64,000 nt of DNA, from contig CAYWKF010000014.1 of NCBI GenBank assembly GCA_964459155.1, positions 7,304 to 71,303 on the forward strand, given 5' to 3'. Position numbers and translations under genes: made by a program. The stretch is from an uncultured Desulfobacterales bacterium (GTDB taxonomy: Bacteria > Desulfobacterota > Dissulfuribacteria > Dissulfuribacterales > JALVPX01). Each line of letters begins with the position of its first letter. Positions within the stretch are counted from its first letter, which is position 1. Of the stretch, positions 4,216 through 57,151 are shown one piece after another. A model generated the notes under the pieces. That model had not been told where the DNA came from. It searched no databases and saw only the letters and a list, made by a program, of their open reading frames with translations.

Positions 4216-4977
4216 CTATGCAACATTGTTTTTCAAATCGCCAATATTTTCAATCGAAACCACGATTTCGTCACCCGGCGACATTTTCCCAACACCTACT
4301 GGTGTTCCAGTGGCAATTACATCGCCAGGTTCAAGCGTCATTATGGTCGAAATAAAGCTGACCAGCTCATATGGATTGTATATGAGCTGATTGGTATTCG
4401 AATCCTGCCTAGTCTCGCCATTCAATCTCGATCTAATCCTCAGATTGCAGGGATCCAATTCTGTGACAATCCAGGGGCCCAACGGGCAGAAGGTGTCAAA
4501 ACTCTTTGATCGTGTAAACTGGACATCTTTTTTTTGAAGGTCCCTTGCTGTAACATCATTTAAGCAAGTATAACCCAATATATAATGAACCGCCTCTTCT
4601 GGCCCAACGTCCTTACACCGCCTTCCCATTACCACTGCCAGTTCTGCTTCATAGTCAACCTGGTTGCTCATGGGAGGCAGTTTGATCGTGTCTTCAGGGC
4701 CGATCACTGACGAAGGAGGCTTCAAAAATATGAGAGGTTCGTCTGGCAGTTCCATACCTAGTTCCCGTGCATGATCCCTGTAATTGAGGCCAACAGCCAC
4801 TATTTTTGTGGGAGTGCATGGAGGAAGAAGCCGGACCAGTGTTTCAGAATAGACTCCATTATCCTCGTCAATGGAATCTTCAAAAGGCCCTCTTAAGAGA
4901 GCCTTGATACCTTCGTCCGTAAAGATCCCATATCGAGGCAATTTGTTGTCGTCAGTGGTAAAACGTACAAATTTCAT
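4216..4977 (-). CDS. fumarylacetoacetate hydrolase (FAH) family protein
   Basis: The 253-aa ORF carries FAH-fold motifs: VGLNYRDHA, DYEAELAVVMG, CLNDVTARDLQ, KSFDTFCPLGP and PGDVIATGTPVGVG. Confidence 0.8.
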   Translation of the reverse strand: MKFVRFTTDDNKLPRYGIFTDEGIKALLRGPFEDSIDEDNGVYSETLVRLLPPCTPTKIVAVGLNYRDHARELGMELPDEPLIFLKPPSSVIGPEDTIKLPPMSNQVDYEAELAVVMGRRCKDVGPEEAVHYILGYTCLNDVTARDLQKKDVQFTRSKSFDTFCPLGPWIVTELDPCNLRIRSRLNGETRQDSNTNQLIYNPYELVSFISTIMTLEPGDVIATGTPVGVGKMSPGDEIVVSIENIGDLKNNVA

Positions 4978-4989
4978 ACACTATAGGAG

Positions 4990-5811
4990 CTAATCCTTAA
5001 GGCCCAATACGTCCTGCATATCGTACAATCCAGGCGGCTGGTTCACTATCCATTTTGCCGCGCGGACGGCCCCTTTTGCAAATGTATCCCTGCTAGATGC
5101 CTTGTGAACCAATTCGATGCGTTCTCCTATGCCGCCAAATAATACGGTATGCTCTCCAACTATATCTCCTGCCCTGACGGTTTGAATGCCTATTTCCTCT
5201 TTAGAACGTTCGCCTATGTTTCCATACCGTTCGTAAACGGCCACTGTGTCAAAGTCGCGTTCCAGGGCTGCAGCCGCTACCCTTCCCAATTGAAGGGCTG
5301 TACCGCTTGGTGCGTCCTTTTTCATGCGGTGATGCGCTTCAACTATTTCAATGTCATAGTCATCACCAAGGACTTTGGCGGCTGTTTCCACCAGCTTGTA
5401 TAGCAGATTCACTCCCACGCTCATGTTTGGAGCCAATACGACAGGAAACTCTTTGGCAAGCTCGGCTATTTTTTCCAGCTCACTTTTTGAAAATCCTGTG
5501 GTGCCTATGACCATGGGTTTCTTGGCTTGGCTGGCTGTCTTAGCATGTTTTACCGTGGCCTCGTGGAATGTAAAATCAATCAAAACATCGCCTTGGTCTA
5601 TTACTTCATCAAGATTGTCCGCAACTGTTATACCCGACTCTGGCAGCCCGGCAAGGGCAGTGGCGTCCTTGCCTACGGCTGGACTGTCTGGATGTTCGAA
5701 GGCCGCGCCCAGGGTTATCCCCTCCGCTTCAGAGACCATGGCGATGATACGCCCTCCCATCCTTCCTCCTGCACCTGCTACTATTGCTTTGACTGGATTG
5801 TCACTGCTCAT
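4990..5811 (-). CDS. dapB: 4-hydroxy-tetrahydrodipicolinate reductase
   Basis: The 273-aa ORF has the Rossmann motif GAGGRMG, the DapB signature EIVEAHHRMKKDAPSGTA, and HKASSRDTFAKGAVRAAKW. Confidence 0.92.
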   Translation of the reverse strand: MSSDNPVKAIVAGAGGRMGGRIIAMVSEAEGITLGAAFEHPDSPAVGKDATALAGLPESGITVADNLDEVIDQGDVLIDFTFHEATVKHAKTASQAKKPMVIGTTGFSKSELEKIAELAKEFPVVLAPNMSVGVNLLYKLVETAAKVLGDDYDIEIVEAHHRMKKDAPSGTALQLGRVAAAALERDFDTVAVYERYGNIGERSKEEIGIQTVRAGDIVGEHTVLFGGIGERIELVHKASSRDTFAKGAVRAAKWIVNQPPGLYDMQDVLGLKD

Positions 5812-5812
5812 T

Positions 5813-6706
5813 TTACAACACCCCCACTGACTTCATTACTTGCATGAGCCTCTCTTTATTTGCTTGACTCATTGGGGCAAGAGGAAGCCTTACTTCATCA
5901 GAAGGTATCTTGCCCATCATGGCCAGGGCTGTCTTAGCAGGTACAGGATTGGTTTCATAAAAGAGGGCGCCAAAGAGCGGGAAGAGTTTGTAGTGTATTT
6001 CTTTGGCCTTAGATATCTCTCCGCTATTCCAGGCATTCATCATTTCGGCCATCTCTTTTGGCATTACGTTGGAGCATACAGAAATAACCCCCTTGCCGCC
6101 GACTGCCATGGTCGGAAACGCTGTAAAGTCATCGCCAGAAAGGACTATGAAATCATCCGGACATTGCAAAACAACCTGCGAAATTTGGTTCAAGCTGCCT
6201 GTGGCCTCTTTGATCGCTACTACATATTCGCTCTCCTTGGCACAGCGAGCCACTGTTTCTGGAAGCATGTTCACACTTGTGCGGCCTGGGACGTTGTAAA
6301 GAACCATAGGAAACTTGCATTCGTCTGCCACCTTCATGAAGTGCTGGTATAGCCCTTCCTGTGTCGGTTTGTTGTAATAGGGCGTAATAACCAAGGCTGC
6401 GTCTGCGCCTGCATCTTTGGCATGTCTGGTAAGCATAATGGTTTCAGCGGTGGAATTGGAACCCGTGCCAGCTATTACCGGAACCCTTCCTTTTACCGTT
6501 TCTATGGTCAGCTCCACCACGCGTTTGTGTTCATCGTGGCTGAGCGTGGCAGATTCTCCTGTGGTTCCGCAGGGCACTATGCAATGTGTGCCAGATTCTA
6601 TGTGCCATTCGATGAGATTCCTAAGTGTATCTTCATCTACCTTGCCATCTTTGAAAGGTGTAATTATTGCTACAATGGCCCCGCCGATTTTATCTGTTTT
6701 CGACAT
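5813..6706 (-). CDS. dapA: 4-hydroxy-tetrahydrodipicolinate synthase
   Basis: The 297-aa ORF has the motifs GTTGESATLS, PYYNKPTQEG, LYNVPGRT and the Schiff-base Lys region AIKEATG. Confidence 0.93.
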   Translation of the reverse strand: MSKTDKIGGAIVAIITPFKDGKVDEDTLRNLIEWHIESGTHCIVPCGTTGESATLSHDEHKRVVELTIETVKGRVPVIAGTGSNSTAETIMLTRHAKDAGADAALVITPYYNKPTQEGLYQHFMKVADECKFPMVLYNVPGRTSVNMLPETVARCAKESEYVVAIKEATGSLNQISQVVLQCPDDFIVLSGDDFTAFPTMAVGGKGVISVCSNVMPKEMAEMMNAWNSGEISKAKEIHYKLFPLFGALFYETNPVPAKTALAMMGKIPSDEVRLPLAPMSQANKERLMQVMKSVGVL

Positions 6707-6786
6707 GAATTTGAACCTCCCCCAGTAAAATATAACTCAACCTGTTTCCGTGCATTCTTAAACACTTTTTGCAAAGTGGGCAAGAC

Positions 6787-7614
6787 TCAACCAACATCTC
6801 CATCCATTATCCCAGTATAGACATGAACAGCCCCACCTTCCAAAAAGACCTCCGTGAATTCCTGGTCCTGCATATCAAAATAGATGGTCAGCTCTTCATT
6901 GCCCCATGTGGTTACCTTTGTGGGACTCTTAACAAACCCTTTTAAGGCAGAAATAAGGGCGCTTGCCACTGCACCGGTGCCACAGGCTAGTGTTTCATCC
7001 TCTACACCGCGTTCATATGTGCGTATCAAGATATGGTGCTCATCCTTTATTTGTACAAAATCAACATTGGTTCCTTCAGGGGCGAAGAGATCATCGTACC
7101 TTATGAGCCTACCCCATTCGAATACCGGGACATGGTCCAAATCTTCGGTTAGCACCACCGCATGGGGCACTCCTGTATTGATATAGTCAATGGTGAGCTC
7201 ATCCAGGCCTGTGGAAAATTTAATATCCAGTCTCAGATCCGAGGGTTTGGTCATTTCCAGCTTCACCTGTTTGTCTCTTACTTCAGCCCTTATAATGCCT
7301 GCCAAGGTCTCAAAACTGAGCTTCTCTCCGCATATTCCTTTCATAAAAGCAAATCTGGCAGCACATCTGCCTCCATTTCCACACATTTCAGCCTCGCTAC
7401 CATCTGCATTGAAGAAATACCATTTGAAGTCTGCTTTTTGTGAATTTTCGATAAGTATGAAGCCGTCAGCTCCAATACCAAAGCGGCGCCTACACCATTT
7501 TCTTGCCTTGTATGGCACTTCGGAATGTTTTATTAACCGTTCCCGGTTGTCGACTAATATGAAATCATTGCCGCTTCCGTGCATTTTGATGAATTCGACA
7601 TTCTTTTTCATCAA
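6787..7614 (-). CDS. dapF: diaminopimelate epimerase
   Basis: The 275-aa ORF has MHGSGNDFILVD, both catalytic Cys regions (EMCGNGGRC and LACGTGAVA), and a 4-nt overlap with lysA. Confidence 0.92.
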   Translation of the reverse strand: MMKKNVEFIKMHGSGNDFILVDNRERLIKHSEVPYKARKWCRRRFGIGADGFILIENSQKADFKWYFFNADGSEAEMCGNGGRCAARFAFMKGICGEKLSFETLAGIIRAEVRDKQVKLEMTKPSDLRLDIKFSTGLDELTIDYINTGVPHAVVLTEDLDHVPVFEWGRLIRYDDLFAPEGTNVDFVQIKDEHHILIRTYERGVEDETLACGTGAVASALISALKGFVKSPTKVTTWGNEELTIYFDMQDQEFTEVFLEGGAVHVYTGIMDGDVG

Positions 7615-38386: not shown

Positions 38387-38474
38387 GGAGGGATGGCCGA
38401 GTGGTTTAAGGCGGCGGTCTTGAAAACCGCTGTGCCGAAAGGCACCGTGGGTTCGAATCCTACTCCCTCCGCCA
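38387..38474 (+). tRNA. tRNA-Ser (anticodon UGA)
   Basis: The hand-folded cloverleaf has acceptor GGAGGGA/TCCCTCC, anticodon stem GCGGT/ACCGC with loop CTTGAAA, a long variable arm, the T-arm GTGGG-TTCGAAT-CCTAC, and an encoded CCA. Confidence 0.92.
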
Positions 38475-38489
38475 CATACTGCCATGAAC

Positions 38490-38581
<92 letters not shown>

Positions 38582-41255: not shown

Positions 41256-43745
41256 TTATTTCTTCTTCTTCGTGGTTCTTTTGCACGTCCGTTTCGTGTT
41301 GCATTTCCCTCGGCCTTTTTTAAGCTCCTTTTCTTTTTCTGCCACTACCAGCCTTGTCTTAACGATGGTGTCTGGAGTAAGGCTCATGGAATCAATTCCG
41401 CACTGGACCAAGAAGGCTGCGAAGTCTGGGAAGTCGCTGGGAGCCTGCCCACAAATTCCAATCTTCCTTTTGCACTTTTTGGCTGTTTTGATTACATCGC
41501 TTATCAGGCGTTTGACCGCATCATTGCGCTCGTCATAAATATGGGAGACTAGCTCTGAATCCCTGTCCAGGCCCAAGGTCAATTGGGTGAGGTCATTTGA
41601 TCCGATGGAGAAGCCGTCAAATACTTCAGCAAACTGATCCGCCAATACGACATTACTTGGAATTTCACACATCACATAAACTTCTAGTCCATTTTCCCCT
41701 TGTTTGAGTCCATATTTCTTCATGACGTCTATCACCTTTTGCCCCTCTTCCACTGTGCGGCAGAATGGGATCATAACCTTGACGTTCCTGAGACCCATTT
41801 CATCCCGCACCTTTTTTAATGCTTCACACTCAAGGGCAAAGGCTGGCTCAAAGTTCGGGGAATAGTAACGTGAAGCCCCGCGCCATCCAATCATAGGATT
41901 GTGTTCTTCTGGTTCATAAATGGAGCCGCCTATCAAGTTTGCATATTCATTGCTCTTGAAGTCAGACAAACGGACTATCACATCGTTGGGCCAGAAGCCA
42001 GCTGCAATCCTTGCCACACCTTGGGCCAGGGTATCCACGAAGAACTTGGACTTGTCATCATAAGCCATGGTCTTTTCATCAATGGCCTTGATAACATCCT
42101 TCAACGACTTATCCTTTCTAGCTTTCCGTTTGAGTTTCGCATAGTCTAGAAGCGCCAGAGGATGAATGCCGATGTGTGAATTGATTATGAATTCCAGACG
42201 CGCCAGTCCAACGCCATCATTTGGTATTTGGCCCTGAGTGAAGGCCTGTTCTGGTATCCCCACATTCATCATCAGCTTTGTCTTAGTCTTTGGAAGCTCA
42301 CTCAGGTCCAGCCTCTGCACCTCATACTTCAAAAGGCCTTCATACACTACGCCTTCCTCCCCTTCGGCACAGGAAACGGTAACTGGCTGGCCATTTTTAA
42401 TTTTCTTCGTTCCGTCTTCTGTTCCAACGATGCATGGAATACCTAATTCCCTGGATACGATGGCAGCATGGCACGTTCGTCCGCCGCGGTTAGTGACGAT
42501 GGCAGCTGCAATTTTCATAATGGGTTCCCAGTCAGGGTCTGTCATGTCTGTAACCAGGACCTGGCCTTTTTTAAACTTTGTGATTTCGTTGACGTTTTTG
42601 ATGACTGCGGCCTTACCTTGTCCAATCTTTGATCCTACTGCGTTGCCGGTACATAGGACCTTACCTTTTTCTTTCAAGACATAAGTTTCAATAAAATTGA
42701 CATCCTTTTGTGAATGGACTGTTTCCGGTCTTGCCTGGACTATGTACAGTTCTCCGGTTCCAACCTTTTTGCCGTCGCCATCCTTGGCCCATTCTATGTC
42801 CATCTGTTTCTTGTAATGTTTTTCAATGATGCATGCCCATTTGGCCAAGGTGACAAGCTCGTCATCCGAGAGCACGAAGGTCCTTTGCTCTTTCTTAGTG
42901 GTGGCCTTGTTCTTCACAGGATTCCGCGGATTGTCGGTATAGATCATTTTTTTCTGCTTCAGACCAAGCTTTTTACTGATGACAGGCTTGAAACCCTCTT
43001 CCAGGGTGGGTTTAAAGACATAAAATTCATCAGGGTTCACAGCACCTTGCACCACATTTTCACCGAGACCCCAGGCTCCGGTAATGTAAACTACCTTGTC
43101 GAAACCACTTTCTGTATCCATGGTGAACATGACGCCCGAACTTGCGGCATCGCTTCTAACCATCTTCTGTACAGCAATTGACAAGTAGACATCAAAATGT
43201 CCAAAGCCTTTGTCTTGACGGTAGGATATAGCTCTGTCAGTAAACAGGCTTGCAAAACATTTGTGTGCTGCCTGGAGCAGCATTTCTGGGCCGCGTATAT
43301 TTAAATAAGTCTCTTGCTGCCCAGCAAAAGAGGCATCTGGGAGGTCTTCAGCAGTAGCTGAGGATCGAACTGCCACATCCACGTTCGGTCCATACTCCTT
43401 TTCCATTTCCCTGTAGGCATTGATAATTTCATCTTCAAGATCCTTTGGAAAGGGGGCCTTCAATATAATATCCCGTACTTTTTTGCCCCTTTTCTTGAGA
43501 TCTGTAATGTTGTGGGTGTCAAGGCCTTCAAGAACGTCTCTGATAGCCTGTTCTATGCCAGCTTCTTTCAAAATGTATTTGTATGCCTCTGCTGTAATGG
43601 CAAATCCATTAGGAATGTTTACGCCCTTCTTGGTCAAATGGCGATACATCTCCCCCAGAGAAGCATTCTTGCCACCCACAATGGGAACGTCTTTGATCCC
43701 GATTTCCTTGAACCAAAGAATGAAAGGTTTCTTTTTTTTAGCCAT
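41256..43745 (-). CDS. ppsA: phosphoenolpyruvate synthase (pyruvate, water dikinase)
   Basis: The 829-aa ORF has all three domains. These are the N-terminal ATP-grasp (GGKNASLGEM, VAVRSSATAEDLP), the phosphohistidine loop TNRGGRTCHAAIVSRELGIPCIVG, and the C-terminal PEP-utilising TIM-barrel motifs (IGSNDLTQLTLG). A Lys-rich tail of about 30 aa is also present. Confidence 0.93.
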   Translation of the reverse strand: MAKKKKPFILWFKEIGIKDVPIVGGKNASLGEMYRHLTKKGVNIPNGFAITAEAYKYILKEAGIEQAIRDVLEGLDTHNITDLKKRGKKVRDIILKAPFPKDLEDEIINAYREMEKEYGPNVDVAVRSSATAEDLPDASFAGQQETYLNIRGPEMLLQAAHKCFASLFTDRAISYRQDKGFGHFDVYLSIAVQKMVRSDAASSGVMFTMDTESGFDKVVYITGAWGLGENVVQGAVNPDEFYVFKPTLEEGFKPVISKKLGLKQKKMIYTDNPRNPVKNKATTKKEQRTFVLSDDELVTLAKWACIIEKHYKKQMDIEWAKDGDGKKVGTGELYIVQARPETVHSQKDVNFIETYVLKEKGKVLCTGNAVGSKIGQGKAAVIKNVNEITKFKKGQVLVTDMTDPDWEPIMKIAAAIVTNRGGRTCHAAIVSRELGIPCIVGTEDGTKKIKNGQPVTVSCAEGEEGVVYEGLLKYEVQRLDLSELPKTKTKLMMNVGIPEQAFTQGQIPNDGVGLARLEFIINSHIGIHPLALLDYAKLKRKARKDKSLKDVIKAIDEKTMAYDDKSKFFVDTLAQGVARIAAGFWPNDVIVRLSDFKSNEYANLIGGSIYEPEEHNPMIGWRGASRYYSPNFEPAFALECEALKKVRDEMGLRNVKVMIPFCRTVEEGQKVIDVMKKYGLKQGENGLEVYVMCEIPSNVVLADQFAEVFDGFSIGSNDLTQLTLGLDRDSELVSHIYDERNDAVKRLISDVIKTAKKCKRKIGICGQAPSDFPDFAAFLVQCGIDSMSLTPDTIVKTRLVVAEKEKELKKGRGKCNTKRTCKRTTKKKK

Positions 43746-44009: not shown

Positions 44010-44408
44010 TCAATGTCTCGTGTTTTGCAGTATGACCACGGCTGTTGCGTATTCCCCTTCATGGGAAAGGCTCACCATCCAGCTTTGAGCTCCAATTTGC
44101 ATAGCAAGTCTCCGGGCATTGCCATTCAAGACCAGCACTGGCCTGCCTGAATTCTCCTGCAGCACTTCCATTTGGCGCCAGGCAACTCCTTTTCTCATGC
44201 CAGTTCCCAGAGCCTTTGAACAAGCCTCTTTGGCAGCAAATCTTATTGCAAAGGCCTCAGAGGGCCTTTTTCTCTTGAGGCATATTTCAATTTCCTGCTC
44301 TGTGTAAACCCTGTTCAGGAAACGGTGTCCAAACCTGTTGATTACTCCCTCTATCCGTGGGATGTGTACCAAGTCTATGCCCAAGCCAAGGATCATTTGC
44401 GTCCTCAA
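44010..44408 (-). CDS. acpS: holo-[acyl-carrier-protein] synthase
   Basis: The 132-aa ORF reads [12 protein letters not shown]......[10 protein letters not shown] and [14 protein letters not shown]. It overlaps the upstream pdxJ portion by 4 nt. Confidence 0.9.
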
Positions 44409-45562
44409 ACAATCCGGCCTTTTTTCACCAACGACAGCATCTCTTTTACTGCCCGTTCCATACCCACCAACACTGCCCTGGAAACTACCGAATGGCCAAT
44501 GCTGAATTCCACTATTTCCGCCACAGAGGCCAATCTTGCACTATTTTGGTAGTTCAGGCCATGACCAGCATGAACTCGCAGGCCAAGATCAGCAGCAAGG
44601 CTTGCCATCTCAGCAATTTGATCGAACTCCCGGTCCTGTTCTTCAGCTGATATTGCTTCAGCATAGCGCCCAGTGTGGATTTCAATGCACTCTGCTCCGG
44701 TTCTCTTCGCAGCCTCAATTTGTCCTGGTTCTGGATCAACAAAGAGACTTACCGGGATGGATGCCTCGTGAAGGCGTGCAACAGCTTTGGTGATCTCTTT
44801 TTCTAAGGAAGCAACATCAAGCCCTCCCTCAGTGGTTAGCTCCTCCCGTTTTTCAGGCACTAAGGTGACTATGTCAGGCTGCACCTTTGAAGCGATTTTG
44901 ATCATTTCATCTGTAGCCGCCATTTCTAAGGTGAGCCTGGTTTGGATTGTTTGGCGTAGCAATTCAACGTCCCGATCTTGAATGTGGCGCCTGTCTTCTC
45001 TCAGGTGCACTACTATTCCATCCGCCCCGGCCAGCTCTACCAGCACAGCAGCTGCAACAGGATCTGGCTCTACACCGCCTCTGGCCTGTCTCACAGTGGC
45101 CACATGGTCAACATTGATACACAAGTCAGCCATAATCTTCTCCCCCGTAAGTGCTTTGATGAGTTCTTTTTCTTTTTTTTCAAAAACAATTTGTTCACCA
45201 TCAGACCCTTCATGATCATAGCCCAGCAAATGCACCATGCCATGTATCATTAAGGCCGTCAGCCTGTTTTGCAACGTAGTTTGAGCCAGTTTGGCTTCTC
45301 GTTCAGCAGTGTCCAGCGATATTACGATGTCTCCGAGGAGTCTTGATGCTGTGTGTTCGGGCTGGCTGAATGAAATGACATTGGTAGGTCCTTGGCGCCC
45401 AAGCCACTGCTGATTTATTTGAGCGATATCCTGGTCCGTCGTAAGATAAAGGCTCAACTCCTTGTCTTTGTGGCCGGCCAATTTCAAGATTAACTGCGCA
45501 GCCCTATCTACAAAGAGCAATGACTTGTAGCGCGGATGATTCCATTTTATCTCTGCCCCCAT
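44405..45562 (-). CDS. fusion protein: endoribonuclease YbeY (aa 1-143) joined in frame to pyridoxine 5'-phosphate synthase PdxJ (aa 144-385)
   Basis: This is a single uninterrupted 385-codon ORF. The N-terminal part has the YbeY zinc motif [12 protein letters not shown]. From [20 protein letters not shown] onward it is full-length PdxJ ([20 protein letters not shown]). An internal ATG at 45133 is preceded by the SD-like GGGGGAG. Confidence 0.85.
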
Positions 45563-56865: not shown

Positions 56866-56952
56866 GCCGAGGTGGTGGAATTGGTAGACACGCCATCTTG
56901 AGGGGGTGGTGGGCGCACGCCCGTGGGGGTTCGAATCCCCCCCTCGGCACCA
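56866..56952 (+). tRNA. tRNA-Leu (anticodon GAG)
   Basis: The acceptor is GCCGAGG/CCTCGGC, the anticodon stem CCATC/GGTGG has loop TTGAGGG, a long variable arm is present, the T-arm is GGGGG-TTCGAAT-CCCCC, and CCA is encoded. Confidence 0.9.
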
Positions 56953-57074
56953 ATCTTTGAATCACCTTCTAGTCTTTTATAGAATCTTGACCTAGGGGTA
57001 AAAACGTGTTATCCGTCCCGAGCTTCCGGAATGGTTGTAATTGGTTCTGGTTGTGTTAACTTTAGATGTGGTGT

Positions 57075-57151
57075 CGGGACGTGGCGCAGTCTGGAAGCGC
57101 ACCTGAATGGGGTTCAGGGGGTCGGAGGTTCAAATCCTCTCGTCCCGACCA
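57075..57151 (+). tRNA. tRNA-Pro (anticodon GGG)
   Basis: The acceptor is CGGGACG/CGTCCCG, the anticodon stem CCTGA/TCAGG has loop ATGGGGT, the T-arm is GGAGG-TTCAAAT-CCTCT, and CCA is encoded. Confidence 0.92.

What the first reader, a model, noticed from the sequence alone, without database searches (positions are those of the whole stretch)
44405..45562. In-frame fusion of the rRNA-maturation nuclease YbeY to PLP-biosynthesis enzyme PdxJ
Seen: a single 385-codon ORF contains no stop. A complete YbeY (zinc motif [12 protein letters not shown], ending ...[11 protein letters not shown]) runs directly into a complete PdxJ that starts [20 protein letters not shown]. The junction codons contain an SD-like GGGGGAG 7 nt before the internal ATG (45133), so PdxJ may also be translated on its own. 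The upstream phoH overlaps by 1 nt and the downstream acpS by 4 nt.

Established: phoH-ybeY and pdxJ-acpS are each conserved neighbourhoods, but the two enzymes have unrelated activities.

Inference: loss of the ybeY stop codon has joined two adjacent conserved gene pairs. This yields either a bifunctional polypeptide or a YbeY with a 242-aa tail that could alter its ribosome interactions.
Basis: partly seen in the sequence, partly recalled or inferred. Interest (0 to 1): 0.55.

Follow-up and report, generated by a model that had tools for sequence, protein, structure and literature searches.

The report
Conserved YbeY–PdxJ fusion with internal start
A ribosome-maturation gene (ybeY) and a vitamin-B6 synthesis gene (pdxJ) are genuinely joined into one reading frame here and in hundreds of related sulfur bacteria, and the join keeps a ribosome-binding site and start codon, so the cell probably makes both the fused protein and free PdxJ.

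Summary
Window 44405-45562 is one 385-codon ORF encoding a complete YbeY (aa 1-143) and a complete PdxJ (aa 144-385).

It is not a sequencing artefact. More than 240 distinct 90%-identity protein clusters carry both domains, down to about 45-55% identity. They fall in two large Thermodesulfobacteriota clades and include cultured Desulfocapsa, Desulfopila, Dissulfurirhabdus and Dissulfurimicrobium.

Relatives with adjacent, unfused ybeY and pdxJ exist. In three of them the two genes are in the same frame, separated by one stop codon. This supports origin by stop loss.

New findings:
- The junction codon is a start codon in 116 of 116 aligned fusions (114 ATG, 1 GTG, 1 TTG).
- All 25 distinct junctions examined as DNA carry a strong Shine-Dalgarno motif. 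It is stronger than a synonymous-codon null allows and stronger than the ybeY start's own site. Free PdxJ is therefore very likely also made.
- One Desulfobulbales sublineage has lost PdxJ catalytic residues. It still keeps the domain under purifying selection (pN/pS about 0.22) together with the internal start, which hints at a structural role for the PdxJ fold.

Databases already hold these proteins, and I found no paper describing them. Interest is moderate.

The parts
44405..45562 (-). ybeY::pdxJ fused ORF (385 codons plus stop)
   Evidence: Pfam and NCBIfam find both domains. A 100% identical protein, P0001, is called on NCBI contig JBPNVQ010000050.1.
45134..45562 (-). YbeY module (aa 1-143), ending in a C-terminal helix (aa 121-139) and a 4-6 residue linker
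   Evidence: PF02130 covers aa 21-136, and TIGR00043 scores 109 bits against a cutoff of 45. The AF2 model is confident and Foldseek gives TM 0.85 to Aquifex YbeY 1OZ9.
45212..45244 (-). Zinc-binding His triad H107-x3-H111-x5-H117 ([11 protein letters not shown])
   Evidence: These residues are invariant in 116 fused proteins, and also in the lineage with a degenerate PdxJ domain.
45140..45146 (-). Internal Shine-Dalgarno GGGGGAG inside the linker codons (T-G-E), 6 nt before the internal ATG
   Evidence: The anti-SD duplex energy is -8.6 kcal/mol. All 25 distinct fused junctions reach -6 or better, against 15% of in-ORF background positions. The synonymous-codon null is rejected, with 0 of 1000 resamplings reaching the observed mean.
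45131..45133 (-). Internal start codon ATG (Met144), the ancestral pdxJ start
   Evidence: The junction residue is M in 114 of 116 fusions. The V and L exceptions are encoded by GTG and TTG.
44408..45133 (-). PdxJ module (aa 144-385), pyridoxine 5'-phosphate synthase
   Evidence: PF03740 scores 329 bits and NF003625 scores 365 bits against a cutoff of 190. The alignment to E. coli PdxJ 1M5W is gap-free and all 16 active-site positions checked are identical. Foldseek gives TM 0.94-0.96 to 1HO1.
45562..46554 (-). phoH (ybeZ-like), whose stop overlaps the fusion start by 1 nt (TAATG)
   Evidence: PF02562. phoH lies directly upstream in at least 18 of 22 fused loci.
44010..44396 (-). acpS (holo-ACP synthase), starting 8 nt after the fusion's stop
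   Evidence: PF01648 and TIGR00516. NCBI calls the start at the ATG at 44396. acpS lies directly downstream in at least 13 of 21 fused loci.
46565..47524 (-). corA, the first gene of the same-strand cluster corA-phoH-ybeY::pdxJ-acpS
   Evidence: PF01544. The same order is seen in L082.

Best explanation
This is a genuine, ancient gene fusion. In an ancestor of certain Thermodesulfobacteriota, ybeY and pdxJ were adjacent, translationally coupled genes in a phoH-ybeY-pdxJ-acpS operon. The pdxJ ribosome-binding site was embedded in the last codons of ybeY. Loss of the ybeY stop codon joined the two frames.

The junction still contains that ribosome-binding site and start codon. One ORF therefore most likely yields two products:
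- a 43-kDa YbeY-PdxJ chain, started at the weakly SD-equipped, phoH-coupled ybeY start;
- a 27-kDa free PdxJ, started internally at a strong SD plus ATG.

In the window's version both modules keep all catalytic residues, so it supplies both YbeY activity and PNP synthase activity.

Shown: the fusion is real and conserved; the domains are intact; the internal SD and start are conserved at the nucleotide level; unfused adjacent forms exist.

Inferred: internal initiation actually occurs; free PdxJ outnumbers the fused chain; the fused chain itself is selectively maintained, possibly by co-assembling with free PdxJ subunits into the PdxJ oligomer.
For: Fusion is real and conserved:
- The best 120 clusters all carry PF02130 and PF03740 in proteins of about 380-410 aa, down to 55% identity. 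They include Dissulfurirhabdus and Dissulfurimicrobium isolates.
- A further 120 or more clusters occur in Desulfobulbales, including Desulfocapsa sulfexigens DSM 10523.
- About 4 full-length fused representatives remain at 50% clustering.

Domains are intact:
- The His triad and PdxJ active-site columns are invariant.
- AF2 gives pLDDT 91.6 and pTM 0.88, and both folds match solved structures.

Origin by stop loss:
- L002, L004 and L006 have ybeY and pdxJ in the same frame, separated by one stop. L002 reads ...LIRED*G-M, against ...LIREDI-M in fused L083.
- L051 and L024 have the genes adjacent in other frames.

Internal initiation:
- The junction codon is ATG 114, GTG 1 and TTG 1 out of 116.
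- Mean SD duplex energy is -8.83 kcal/mol at 25 distinct junctions, -3.18 at in-ORF background positions, and -5.92 at the starts of 105 unfused pdxJ genes.
- With amino acids fixed, the synonymous-codon null has a mean of -4.94, and 0 of 1000 resamplings reach the observed value.
- The internal SD is stronger than the ybeY-start SD in 21 of 23 loci (-8.97 vs -4.70).

Operon context is conserved.

PdxJ is an octamer with a low turnover number (kcat 0.07 per s; PMC10471632). This fits a need for more PdxJ than YbeY.
Against: - No protein-level or ribosome-profiling data exist, so internal initiation is inferred from conservation only.
- The anti-SD sequence used is the generic bacterial one, because the organism's 16S rRNA is not in the window.
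- The junction sequences are phylogenetically related, so the 25 junctions are not 25 independent events. Linker amino acids and synonymous sites have nevertheless diverged extensively.
- P0124, a divergent lineage, has no start codon at the junction, so internal initiation is not obligatory for the architecture.
- AF2 output gave only pTM and pLDDT. No coordinates or PAE were available, so the inter-domain interface could not be inspected.
Confidence: 0.75

Rival explanations
1. Sequencing or assembly artefact. A homopolymer-length error in the A8 run (45173-45180), or a miscalled stop, falsely joins two separate genes.
For: An A8 run lies 40 nt upstream of the junction. In the +2 frame a TGA overlaps the pdxJ start (ATGGCTGA), so a 1-nt error could mimic a fusion.
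Against: - The same in-frame architecture occurs in more than 240 independent protein clusters from NCBI, JGI, ENA and Logan assemblies, including complete isolate genomes.
- L082 (75% identical across the 60-residue junction region) has the run interrupted and keeps the same frame.
- The cluster of P0001 contains a second member from an independent 139.6-kb contig.
Confidence: 0.01
2. Fusion-only product. The ORF makes only the 43-kDa bifunctional protein, and the SD-like motif and Met are relics or serve another purpose, such as a translational pause between domains to aid co-translational folding.
For: - The AF2 model predicts a confidently placed, short linker and a high pTM of 0.88, which suggests a defined two-domain protein.
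- One divergent lineage (P0124) has no junction start codon.
Against: - A relic would have decayed. Linker amino acids vary freely (KEK, RRN, RED, GGN, ERK and others), while the AGGAG/GGAGG core, its spacing and the start codon are kept.
- The only two non-ATG junction codons are GTG and TTG, both start codons.
- The synonymous-codon null is rejected.
- The motif is stronger than at genuine pdxJ starts in unfused genomes.
Confidence: 0.12
3. Selectively neutral operon accident. The stop codon between two tightly packed genes was lost, both enzymes tolerate being tethered, and the fusion has no functional meaning beyond co-expression. There is no YbeY-PdxJ functional link.
For: - pdxJ and acpS are frequent but unexplained neighbours of ybeY and era (PMC10582724).
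- The two biochemical activities are unrelated.
- The adjacent same-frame state is one mutation from fusion, so fusion is mutationally easy.
- The PdxJ-domain tree places unfused genes between the two fused clades, which is compatible with repeated gain or loss.
Against: - Many linker codons (AAG, GAG, AAA, AGA, TAT, CAG) are one mutation from a stop. Yet no unfused gene falls inside fused clade 1, in a DNA sample retrieved with a pattern that does not depend on fusion state.
- In a Desulfobulbales sublineage the PdxJ catalytic residues have decayed. The full-length domain is still kept under purifying selection (pN/pS about 0.22) with its internal start, and YbeY residues stay invariant. This is hard to explain if the PdxJ part were only a passenger.
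- Other PdxJ fusions in the database are sporadic singletons with partial domains.
Confidence: 0.35

Closest known systems
YbeY-Era fusion proteins (Clostridia, some Selenomonadales, Thermoleophilum), described in PMC10582724
   Same: YbeY is the N-terminal module, fused to the product of a frequent operon neighbour. The fusion is lineage-restricted and is read as a Rosetta-stone hint.
   Different: The partner here is a metabolic enzyme (PNP synthase), not a ribosome-assembly GTPase. There is no known physical or genetic YbeY-PdxJ interaction. An internal RBS and start are conserved here, and none has been reported for YbeY-Era.
Stand-alone YbeY (PF02130/TIGR00043; PDB 1XM5, 1OZ9) and stand-alone PdxJ (PF03740/TIGR00559; PDB 1HO1, 1M5W)
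   Same: Each module is a full-length member above the curated thresholds, with catalytic residues and fold conserved.
   Different: They are covalently joined through a linker of about 4-6 residues. No solved structure contains both.
In-frame internal translation initiation giving two protein isoforms from one ORF (E. coli infB IF2 alpha/beta, clpB 93/79 kDa, cheA long/short). From my own knowledge, not checked here.
   Same: A conserved SD and start codon inside an ORF, in frame, predict both a long product and a short C-terminal product.
   Different: Here the short product is a complete, ancestrally independent enzyme rather than an N-terminally trimmed isoform. The internal start is the retained original start of the downstream gene.
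UniProt automatic 'Multifunctional fusion protein' entries and NCBI 'pyridoxine 5'-phosphate synthase' annotations for the same architecture (for example Desulfocapsa sulfexigens DSM 10523)
   Same: This is the same protein family, so the window protein is one more member.
   Different: The database names are automatic. NCBI's name hides the YbeY half. I found no paper describing the fusion, its internal start or the degenerate sublineage.

Membership tests
YbeY (PF02130 / TIGR00043) | Profile-HMM score above the curated cutoff over the full domain | tested here: met
   PF02130 scores 105.6 bits (cutoff 25) over profile positions 14-127 of 129. TIGR00043 scores 109.4 bits (cutoff 45).
YbeY (PF02130 / TIGR00043) | H-x3-H-x5-H zinc-binding histidine triad | tested here: met
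   H107, H111 and H117 are present and invariant in 116 fused proteins.
YbeY (PF02130 / TIGR00043) | YbeY fold | tested here: met
   AF2 model (pLDDT 91.6). Foldseek gives TM 0.85 to 1OZ9 and 0.81 to E. coli 1XM5.
YbeY (PF02130 / TIGR00043) | Thr-Asn pair proposed to contact uS11 Asn119 (EcYbeY T65/N66; 2026 preprint) | tested here: inconclusive
   T60-N61 are invariant in all fused proteins. The offset to E. coli YbeY (query 33 matches chain 38) fits T65/N66, but I did not check the alignment residue by residue.
YbeY (PF02130 / TIGR00043) | Biochemical activity (endoribonuclease and/or uS11 isoAsp formation) and 30S interaction while tethered to PdxJ | not testable with these tools
   Requires biochemistry.
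PdxJ (PF03740 / TIGR00559 / NF003625) | Profile-HMM score above the curated cutoff over the full domain | tested here: met
   PF03740 scores 329.5 bits (cutoff 24.5) over profile positions 2-233 of 234. NF003625 scores 365.4 (cutoff 190). TIGR00559 scores 295.2 (cutoff 192.75).
PdxJ (PF03740 / TIGR00559 / NF003625) | Active-site residues of E. coli PdxJ (N9, D11, H12, R20, H45, R47, H52, E72, T102, T103, E153, H155, H193, G194, G215, H216). The list is from my memory of the 2001-2002 structure papers. The 95-105 loop is confirmed in PMC10471632. | tested here: met
   The alignment to 1M5W is gap-free with an offset of 141, and all 16 positions are identical in the window protein.
PdxJ (PF03740 / TIGR00559 / NF003625) | TIM-barrel PdxJ fold | tested here: met
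   Foldseek gives TM 0.94-0.96 to 1HO1 with rmsd 0.9-2.2 A.
PdxJ (PF03740 / TIGR00559 / NF003625) | Octameric assembly and PNP synthase activity | not testable with these tools
   Only single-chain prediction is available, and no coordinates were returned.
Gene fusion of adjacent operon genes (Rosetta-stone type) | Related genomes carry the two halves as separate, adjacent genes in the same order | tested here: met
   L002, L004 and L006 have the same frame with one stop between. L051 and L024 have other frames. L017 and L054 have a 100-470 nt gap.
Gene fusion of adjacent operon genes (Rosetta-stone type) | The fusion recurs in many independent genomes with both halves full-length | tested here: met
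   More than 240 clusters at 90% identity and 4 full-length representatives at 50% identity.
Nested in-frame internal initiation (two products from one ORF) | Start codon conserved at the internal site | tested here: met
   114 ATG, 1 GTG and 1 TTG out of 116. All 25 DNA junctions and all 6 degenerate-lineage junctions have ATG.
Nested in-frame internal initiation (two products from one ORF) | Shine-Dalgarno at correct spacing, conserved beyond what the protein sequence requires | tested here: met
   mean -8.83 against a synonymous null of -4.94, with 0 of 1000 resamplings reaching it. 100% of junctions are -6 kcal/mol or better, against 15% of background positions.
Nested in-frame internal initiation (two products from one ORF) | Direct detection of the short product or of initiating ribosomes | not testable with these tools
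   Needs proteomics or TIS profiling.

The most novel reading that the evidence does not exclude
The PdxJ fold is a physical partner or scaffold for YbeY in these bacteria. The fused chain co-assembles with internally initiated free PdxJ subunits into a mixed PdxJ-type oligomer that displays a few YbeY modules, physically coupling a 30S-maturation factor to the PLP-synthesis enzyme.

In one Desulfobulbales sublineage the PdxJ part has become a pseudoenzyme that is kept only for this structural role.

If true, this would give the first mechanistic meaning to the long-noted but unexplained linkage of pdx genes with ybeY/era and other translation genes.
Probability: 0.3. Interest if true: 0.75.

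Novelty: new variant of a known kind. Interest (0 to 1): 0.55.

Why it matters
YbeY is nearly universal in bacteria. Its function is still debated: it may be a 16S 3'-end nuclease, a uS11-directed enzyme, or both. Its persistent synteny with metabolic genes such as pdxJ and acpS has been called enigmatic (PMC10582724).

A lineage-wide covalent YbeY-PdxJ fusion offers several things:
- It has a retained internal start and a sublineage in which the PdxJ half has lost catalysis but is still conserved. This gives a natural, testable handle on whether that synteny reflects a physical or regulatory link or only operon packing.
- It is a clean comparative example of how an ancestral ribosome-binding site survives inside a fused ORF to preserve independent dosage of the downstream enzyme.
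- Practically, NCBI names these proteins only 'pyridoxine 5'-phosphate synthase'. Genome surveys will therefore score these organisms as lacking ybeY. This matters for the phylogenetic-presence arguments used in recent YbeY work.

Tried and rejected
- Homopolymer or frameshift artefact at the A8 run. Rejected by conservation of the frame in diverged relatives.
- Apparent Ignavibacteria fusion (L023; tblastn HSP over residues 1-380). Rejected because there is a stop before pdxJ, the upstream ORF has no His triad, and it has no Pfam hit.
- tblastn 'FUSED' calls for L002, L004 and L006. Corrected to adjacent-unfused after reading the in-frame stops.
- Other long PdxJ-containing proteins from the representative search (PdxJ+SLH, truncated RecA+PdxJ, PdxJ+ACT_7, truncated PdxJ+Ham1). 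These are sporadic singletons, mostly with partial domains, and are not comparable to a conserved family.
- Organism names through cluster members. None were returned, so taxonomy rests on record titles and the few source names.
- No rRNA in the window from which to take the organism's own anti-SD.
- The promoter scan found only weak consensus matches, for example 45243-45215 inside ybeY (9 of 12). I did not use them as evidence.
- The afdb50 structure library was unavailable.
- The dedicated YbeY review (doi 10.1042/BST20200669) is not held.
- Literature searches for YbeY with PdxJ, fusion or domain architecture found no description of this fusion.
- The NJ tree of PdxJ domains has no support values. 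I do not claim a number of independent fusion events.
Full report
OBSERVATION.

Window 44405-45562 holds one ORF on the minus strand. It has an ATG start, 385 sense codons and no internal stop.

Pfam finds a full YbeY domain (aa 21-136, 105.6 bits) and a full PdxJ domain (aa 147-378, 329.5 bits). The NCBIfam equivalog models for both are above their curated cutoffs.

The junction reads ...[11 protein letters not shown]|[11 protein letters not shown]. The internal ATG is at 45133-45131. GGGGGAG lies at 45146-45140, six nucleotides upstream.

The stop of phoH (45562-46554) overlaps the start by one base (TAATG). The claimed 4-nt overlap with acpS depends on a TTG. NCBI's call starts acpS at the ATG at 44396, and the NCBIfam acpS models also begin their match there. 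That is 8 nt after the fusion's stop.

The window corresponds to NCBI assembly GCA_054028495.1, contig JBPNVQ010000050.1. The 64-kb window has no second ybeY or pdxJ.

NOT AN ARTEFACT.

An A8 run 40 nt upstream of the junction, together with a TGA in another frame overlapping the pdxJ start, made a homopolymer error conceivable. Three searches rule it out:
- A search of 5.8 billion proteins returned 120 of 120 best clusters with both Pfam domains in proteins of about 380-410 aa, down to 55% identity. They include Dissulfurirhabdus thermomarina and a complete Dissulfurimicrobium hydrothermale genome.
- A second search, seeded with a divergent member, returned 120 further fused clusters from Desulfobulbales. 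These include Desulfocapsa sulfexigens DSM 10523, Desulfopila and Desulforhopalus. UniRef already labels one 'Multifunctional f[usion protein]'.
- An exhaustive HMMER scan of 1.84 billion 50%-identity representatives found about four full-length fused representatives, against 884 hits at E≤1e-30. All four have both domains.

So the architecture is real and old but confined to one phylum. L082 (75% identical across the 60-residue junction region) has the A-run interrupted and keeps the frame.

ORIGIN.

DNA loci from genome and metagenome scans were classified by tblastn and by reading the junctions. They comprise 27 truly fused loci (25 distinct junctions) and several loci with ybeY directly upstream of pdxJ as separate genes.

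In L002 (Desulfobacteraceae), L004 and L006 the two genes are in the same frame with one stop between them. L002 reads ...LIRED-TAG-GGC-ATG, against ...LIREDI-ATG in fused L083. In L051 and L024 they are adjacent in different frames. The L002 upstream ORF is a bona fide YbeY.

The pdxJ Shine-Dalgarno lies inside the last ybeY codons in these unfused forms.

phoH lies directly upstream in at least 18 of 22 fused loci, and acpS directly downstream in at least 13 of 21.

A neighbour-joining tree of PdxJ domains shows two large fused clades with some unfused genes between them, and one fused outlier (L005). It has no support values, so I do not count events.

A published review notes that pdxJ and acpS are frequent 'satellites' of ybeY and era genes, and calls the meaning enigmatic. 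It describes YbeY-Era fusions but not this one (PMC10582724).

INTERNAL START.

In an alignment of 116 fused proteins the linker residues vary widely, but the junction residue is Met in 114. The other two are Val and Leu. I predicted these would be GTG and TTG. Fetching the DNA confirmed both, and each has GGAGG or GGGAG upstream.

At the DNA level, almost every fused junction has AGGAG, GGAGG or GGGAG 5-10 nt before the start, although the encoded residues differ (KEK, RRN, RED, GGN, ERK, QRR, TED, EEK).

Duplex energy with the generic anti-SD over positions -20 to -4:
- 25 distinct junctions: mean -8.83 kcal/mol. All are -6 or better, and 80% are -8 or better.
- 9,520 other codon positions in the same ORFs: mean -3.18. 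15% are -6 or better, and 5.5% are -8 or better.
- 105 unfused pdxJ starts: mean -5.92.

With amino acids held fixed and codons resampled from each gene's own usage, the null mean is -4.94. None of 1000 joint resamplings reaches the observed mean.

The internal site is stronger than the site at the ybeY start in 21 of 23 loci (-8.97 vs -4.70). The ybeY start is often GTG and coupled to phoH.

The simplest reading is that the ancestral pdxJ initiation site is maintained by selection. The ORF would then give a low-level YbeY-PdxJ chain and more abundant free PdxJ. PdxJ is an octamer with a low turnover number (PMC10471632), which fits a higher demand for it.

DOMAINS AND STRUCTURE.

The YbeY His triad (H107, H111, H117) and T60-N61 are invariant.

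The PdxJ part aligns without gaps to E. coli PdxJ (fusion residue minus 141). It is identical at all 16 active-site positions checked.

AF2 with the 116-sequence alignment gives mean pLDDT 91.6 and pTM 0.88. A helix (121-139) is followed by a short, confidently modelled linker (pLDDT about 93) and then the first barrel strand (146-150).

Foldseek matches the PdxJ part to 1HO1 (TM 0.94-0.96) and the YbeY part to 1OZ9 (TM 0.85). No solved chain covers both.

The high pTM suggests a defined inter-domain geometry.

A SUBLINEAGE WITH A DEGENERATE PdxJ HALF.

Nine cluster representatives in the Desulfobulbales clade (P0123, P0281, P0283, P0285-P0290) keep every YbeY catalytic residue. They have 3-8 of the 16 PdxJ active-site positions replaced, in at least four different patterns. 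H52, T103 and H155 are hit in nearly all, and E72K or H193Q occur in some.

A separate divergent protein (P0124) has 8 of 16 positions changed and no junction start.

Six loci of the sublineage share one synteny: lon-clpX-clpP-tig on one strand, then DSBA-phoH-fusion, with no acpS downstream.

In the two unsaturated pairs the PdxJ-fold half has pN/pS of 0.22, equal to the YbeY half. In intact fused pairs the PdxJ half shows 0.11-0.15 and the YbeY half 0.21-0.31. So constraint on the PdxJ half is relaxed but far from neutral.

All six genes keep an AGGAG core (AAGGAG in five, TAGGAG in L164) plus ATG at the junction.

A full-length, conserved, probably non-catalytic PdxJ fold that is still internally initiated argues that the PdxJ module does something for the fusion beyond making PNP. 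A scaffold role in a mixed oligomer is one possibility. This is an inference. The window's own protein is of the intact type.

COMPARISON AND NOVELTY.

Each half is an ordinary member of its family, and the membership features were tested and met. The architecture resembles the described YbeY-Era fusions, but the partner here is a metabolic enzyme.

Expression resembles in-frame internal initiation as in infB, clpB and cheA (from my own knowledge). The difference is that the short product here is a complete ancestral enzyme.

The proteins are already in NCBI, where they are named only 'pyridoxine 5'-phosphate synthase', and in UniProt, under the automatic name 'Multifunctional fusion protein'. 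The fusion is therefore recorded but, as far as the searchable literature shows, undescribed.

A 2026 preprint reassigns YbeY to enzymatic isoaspartate formation in uS11. 'rRNA-maturation nuclease' may therefore be an incomplete label for the N-terminal half.

Other PdxJ fusions in the database are sporadic singletons.

VERDICT.

- Best explanation: a conserved stop-loss fusion with a retained internal start, giving two products (confidence 0.75).
- Whether the tether itself is adaptive remains open. The degenerate sublineage tips the balance somewhat toward yes.
- Interest is 0.55, and novelty is a new variant of a known kind.

LIMITS.

- There are no expression data.
- The anti-SD sequence is generic.
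- The sequences are related, so they are not independent events.
- The pN/pS estimates and the NJ tree are simple methods.
- Which PdxJ residues are catalytic rests partly on my memory of the structure papers.

Noticed in passing
L164 6001-7194; L166 8001-9197; L167 551-1747; L168 75-1271; L169 3942-5132; L170 8001-9194 (proteins P0123, P0287, P0288, P0283, P0286, P0290): A Desulfobulbales sublineage of the fusion has a degenerate PdxJ half. 3-8 of the 16 PdxJ active-site positions are replaced, in several patterns, while all YbeY catalytic residues are kept. The domain is still full-length, has pN/pS of about 0.22, and keeps an internal AGGAG-core SD plus ATG. The loci share the synteny lon-clpX-clpP-tig | DSBA-phoH-fusion, and acpS is absent downstream. 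This is a candidate pseudoenzyme domain.
   Followed up: partly
L165 897-2198 (P0124, ENA ERZ1029111 k87_51549975): A very divergent, high-GC fused protein (433 aa). It has a linker of about 22 residues, no start codon at the junction, and 8 of 16 PdxJ active-site positions changed. It is the only fused form seen without an internal start.
   Followed up: partly
L002 ~5914-7077; L004 ~6001-7160; L006 ~4831-5967: Relatives in which ybeY and pdxJ are adjacent, in the same reading frame, and separated by a single stop codon. Each is one mutation from the fused state. The pdxJ SD lies inside or just after the ybeY 3' end.
   Followed up: yes
window 44396-44408 (-): The acpS start is ambiguous. The mechanical ORF begins at TTG 44408 and overlaps the fusion by 4 nt. 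The NCBI call begins acpS at ATG 44396, and the NCBIfam acpS models also begin their match there. GAGGA lies 6 nt upstream of that ATG, so there is probably an 8-nt gap rather than an overlap.
   Followed up: partly
window 45173-45180 (-): An A8 homopolymer lies in the EKKEKE-coding stretch of ybeY. It is a potential error or slippage site, but the frame downstream is conserved in relatives that lack the uninterrupted run.
   Followed up: yes
window 41256-43745 (-): An 829-aa PEP-utilising enzyme (PPDK_N / PEP-utilizers / PEP-utilizers_C) lies downstream of acpS. It ends in an unusually basic, Lys/Arg/Cys-rich tail (...KKGRGKCNTKRTCKRTTKKKK). The same gene follows acpS in L082, L085 and L093.
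   Followed up: no
window 38387-38581 (+) and 56866-57151 (+): There are two tRNA pairs: tRNA-Ser(TGA) with tRNA-Ser(GCT), and tRNA-Leu(GAG) with tRNA-Pro(GGG). The window has no rRNA or other Rfam family above gathering score.
   Followed up: no
proteins P0161, P0183, P0231, P0233: Sporadic other PdxJ-containing chimeras occur in metagenome proteins: PdxJ+SLH (782 aa), RecA(1-108)+PdxJ, PdxJ(1-215)+Ham1, and PdxJ+ACT_7. Most have truncated domains and are probably assembly or gene-calling artefacts or one-off events.
   Followed up: partly
annotation of P0018, P0060, P0081, P0298, P0338 and others: NCBI names the fused proteins only 'pyridoxine 5'-phosphate synthase'. Name-based surveys would therefore score these genomes as lacking ybeY. 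This is relevant to published YbeY presence/absence analyses.
   Followed up: no
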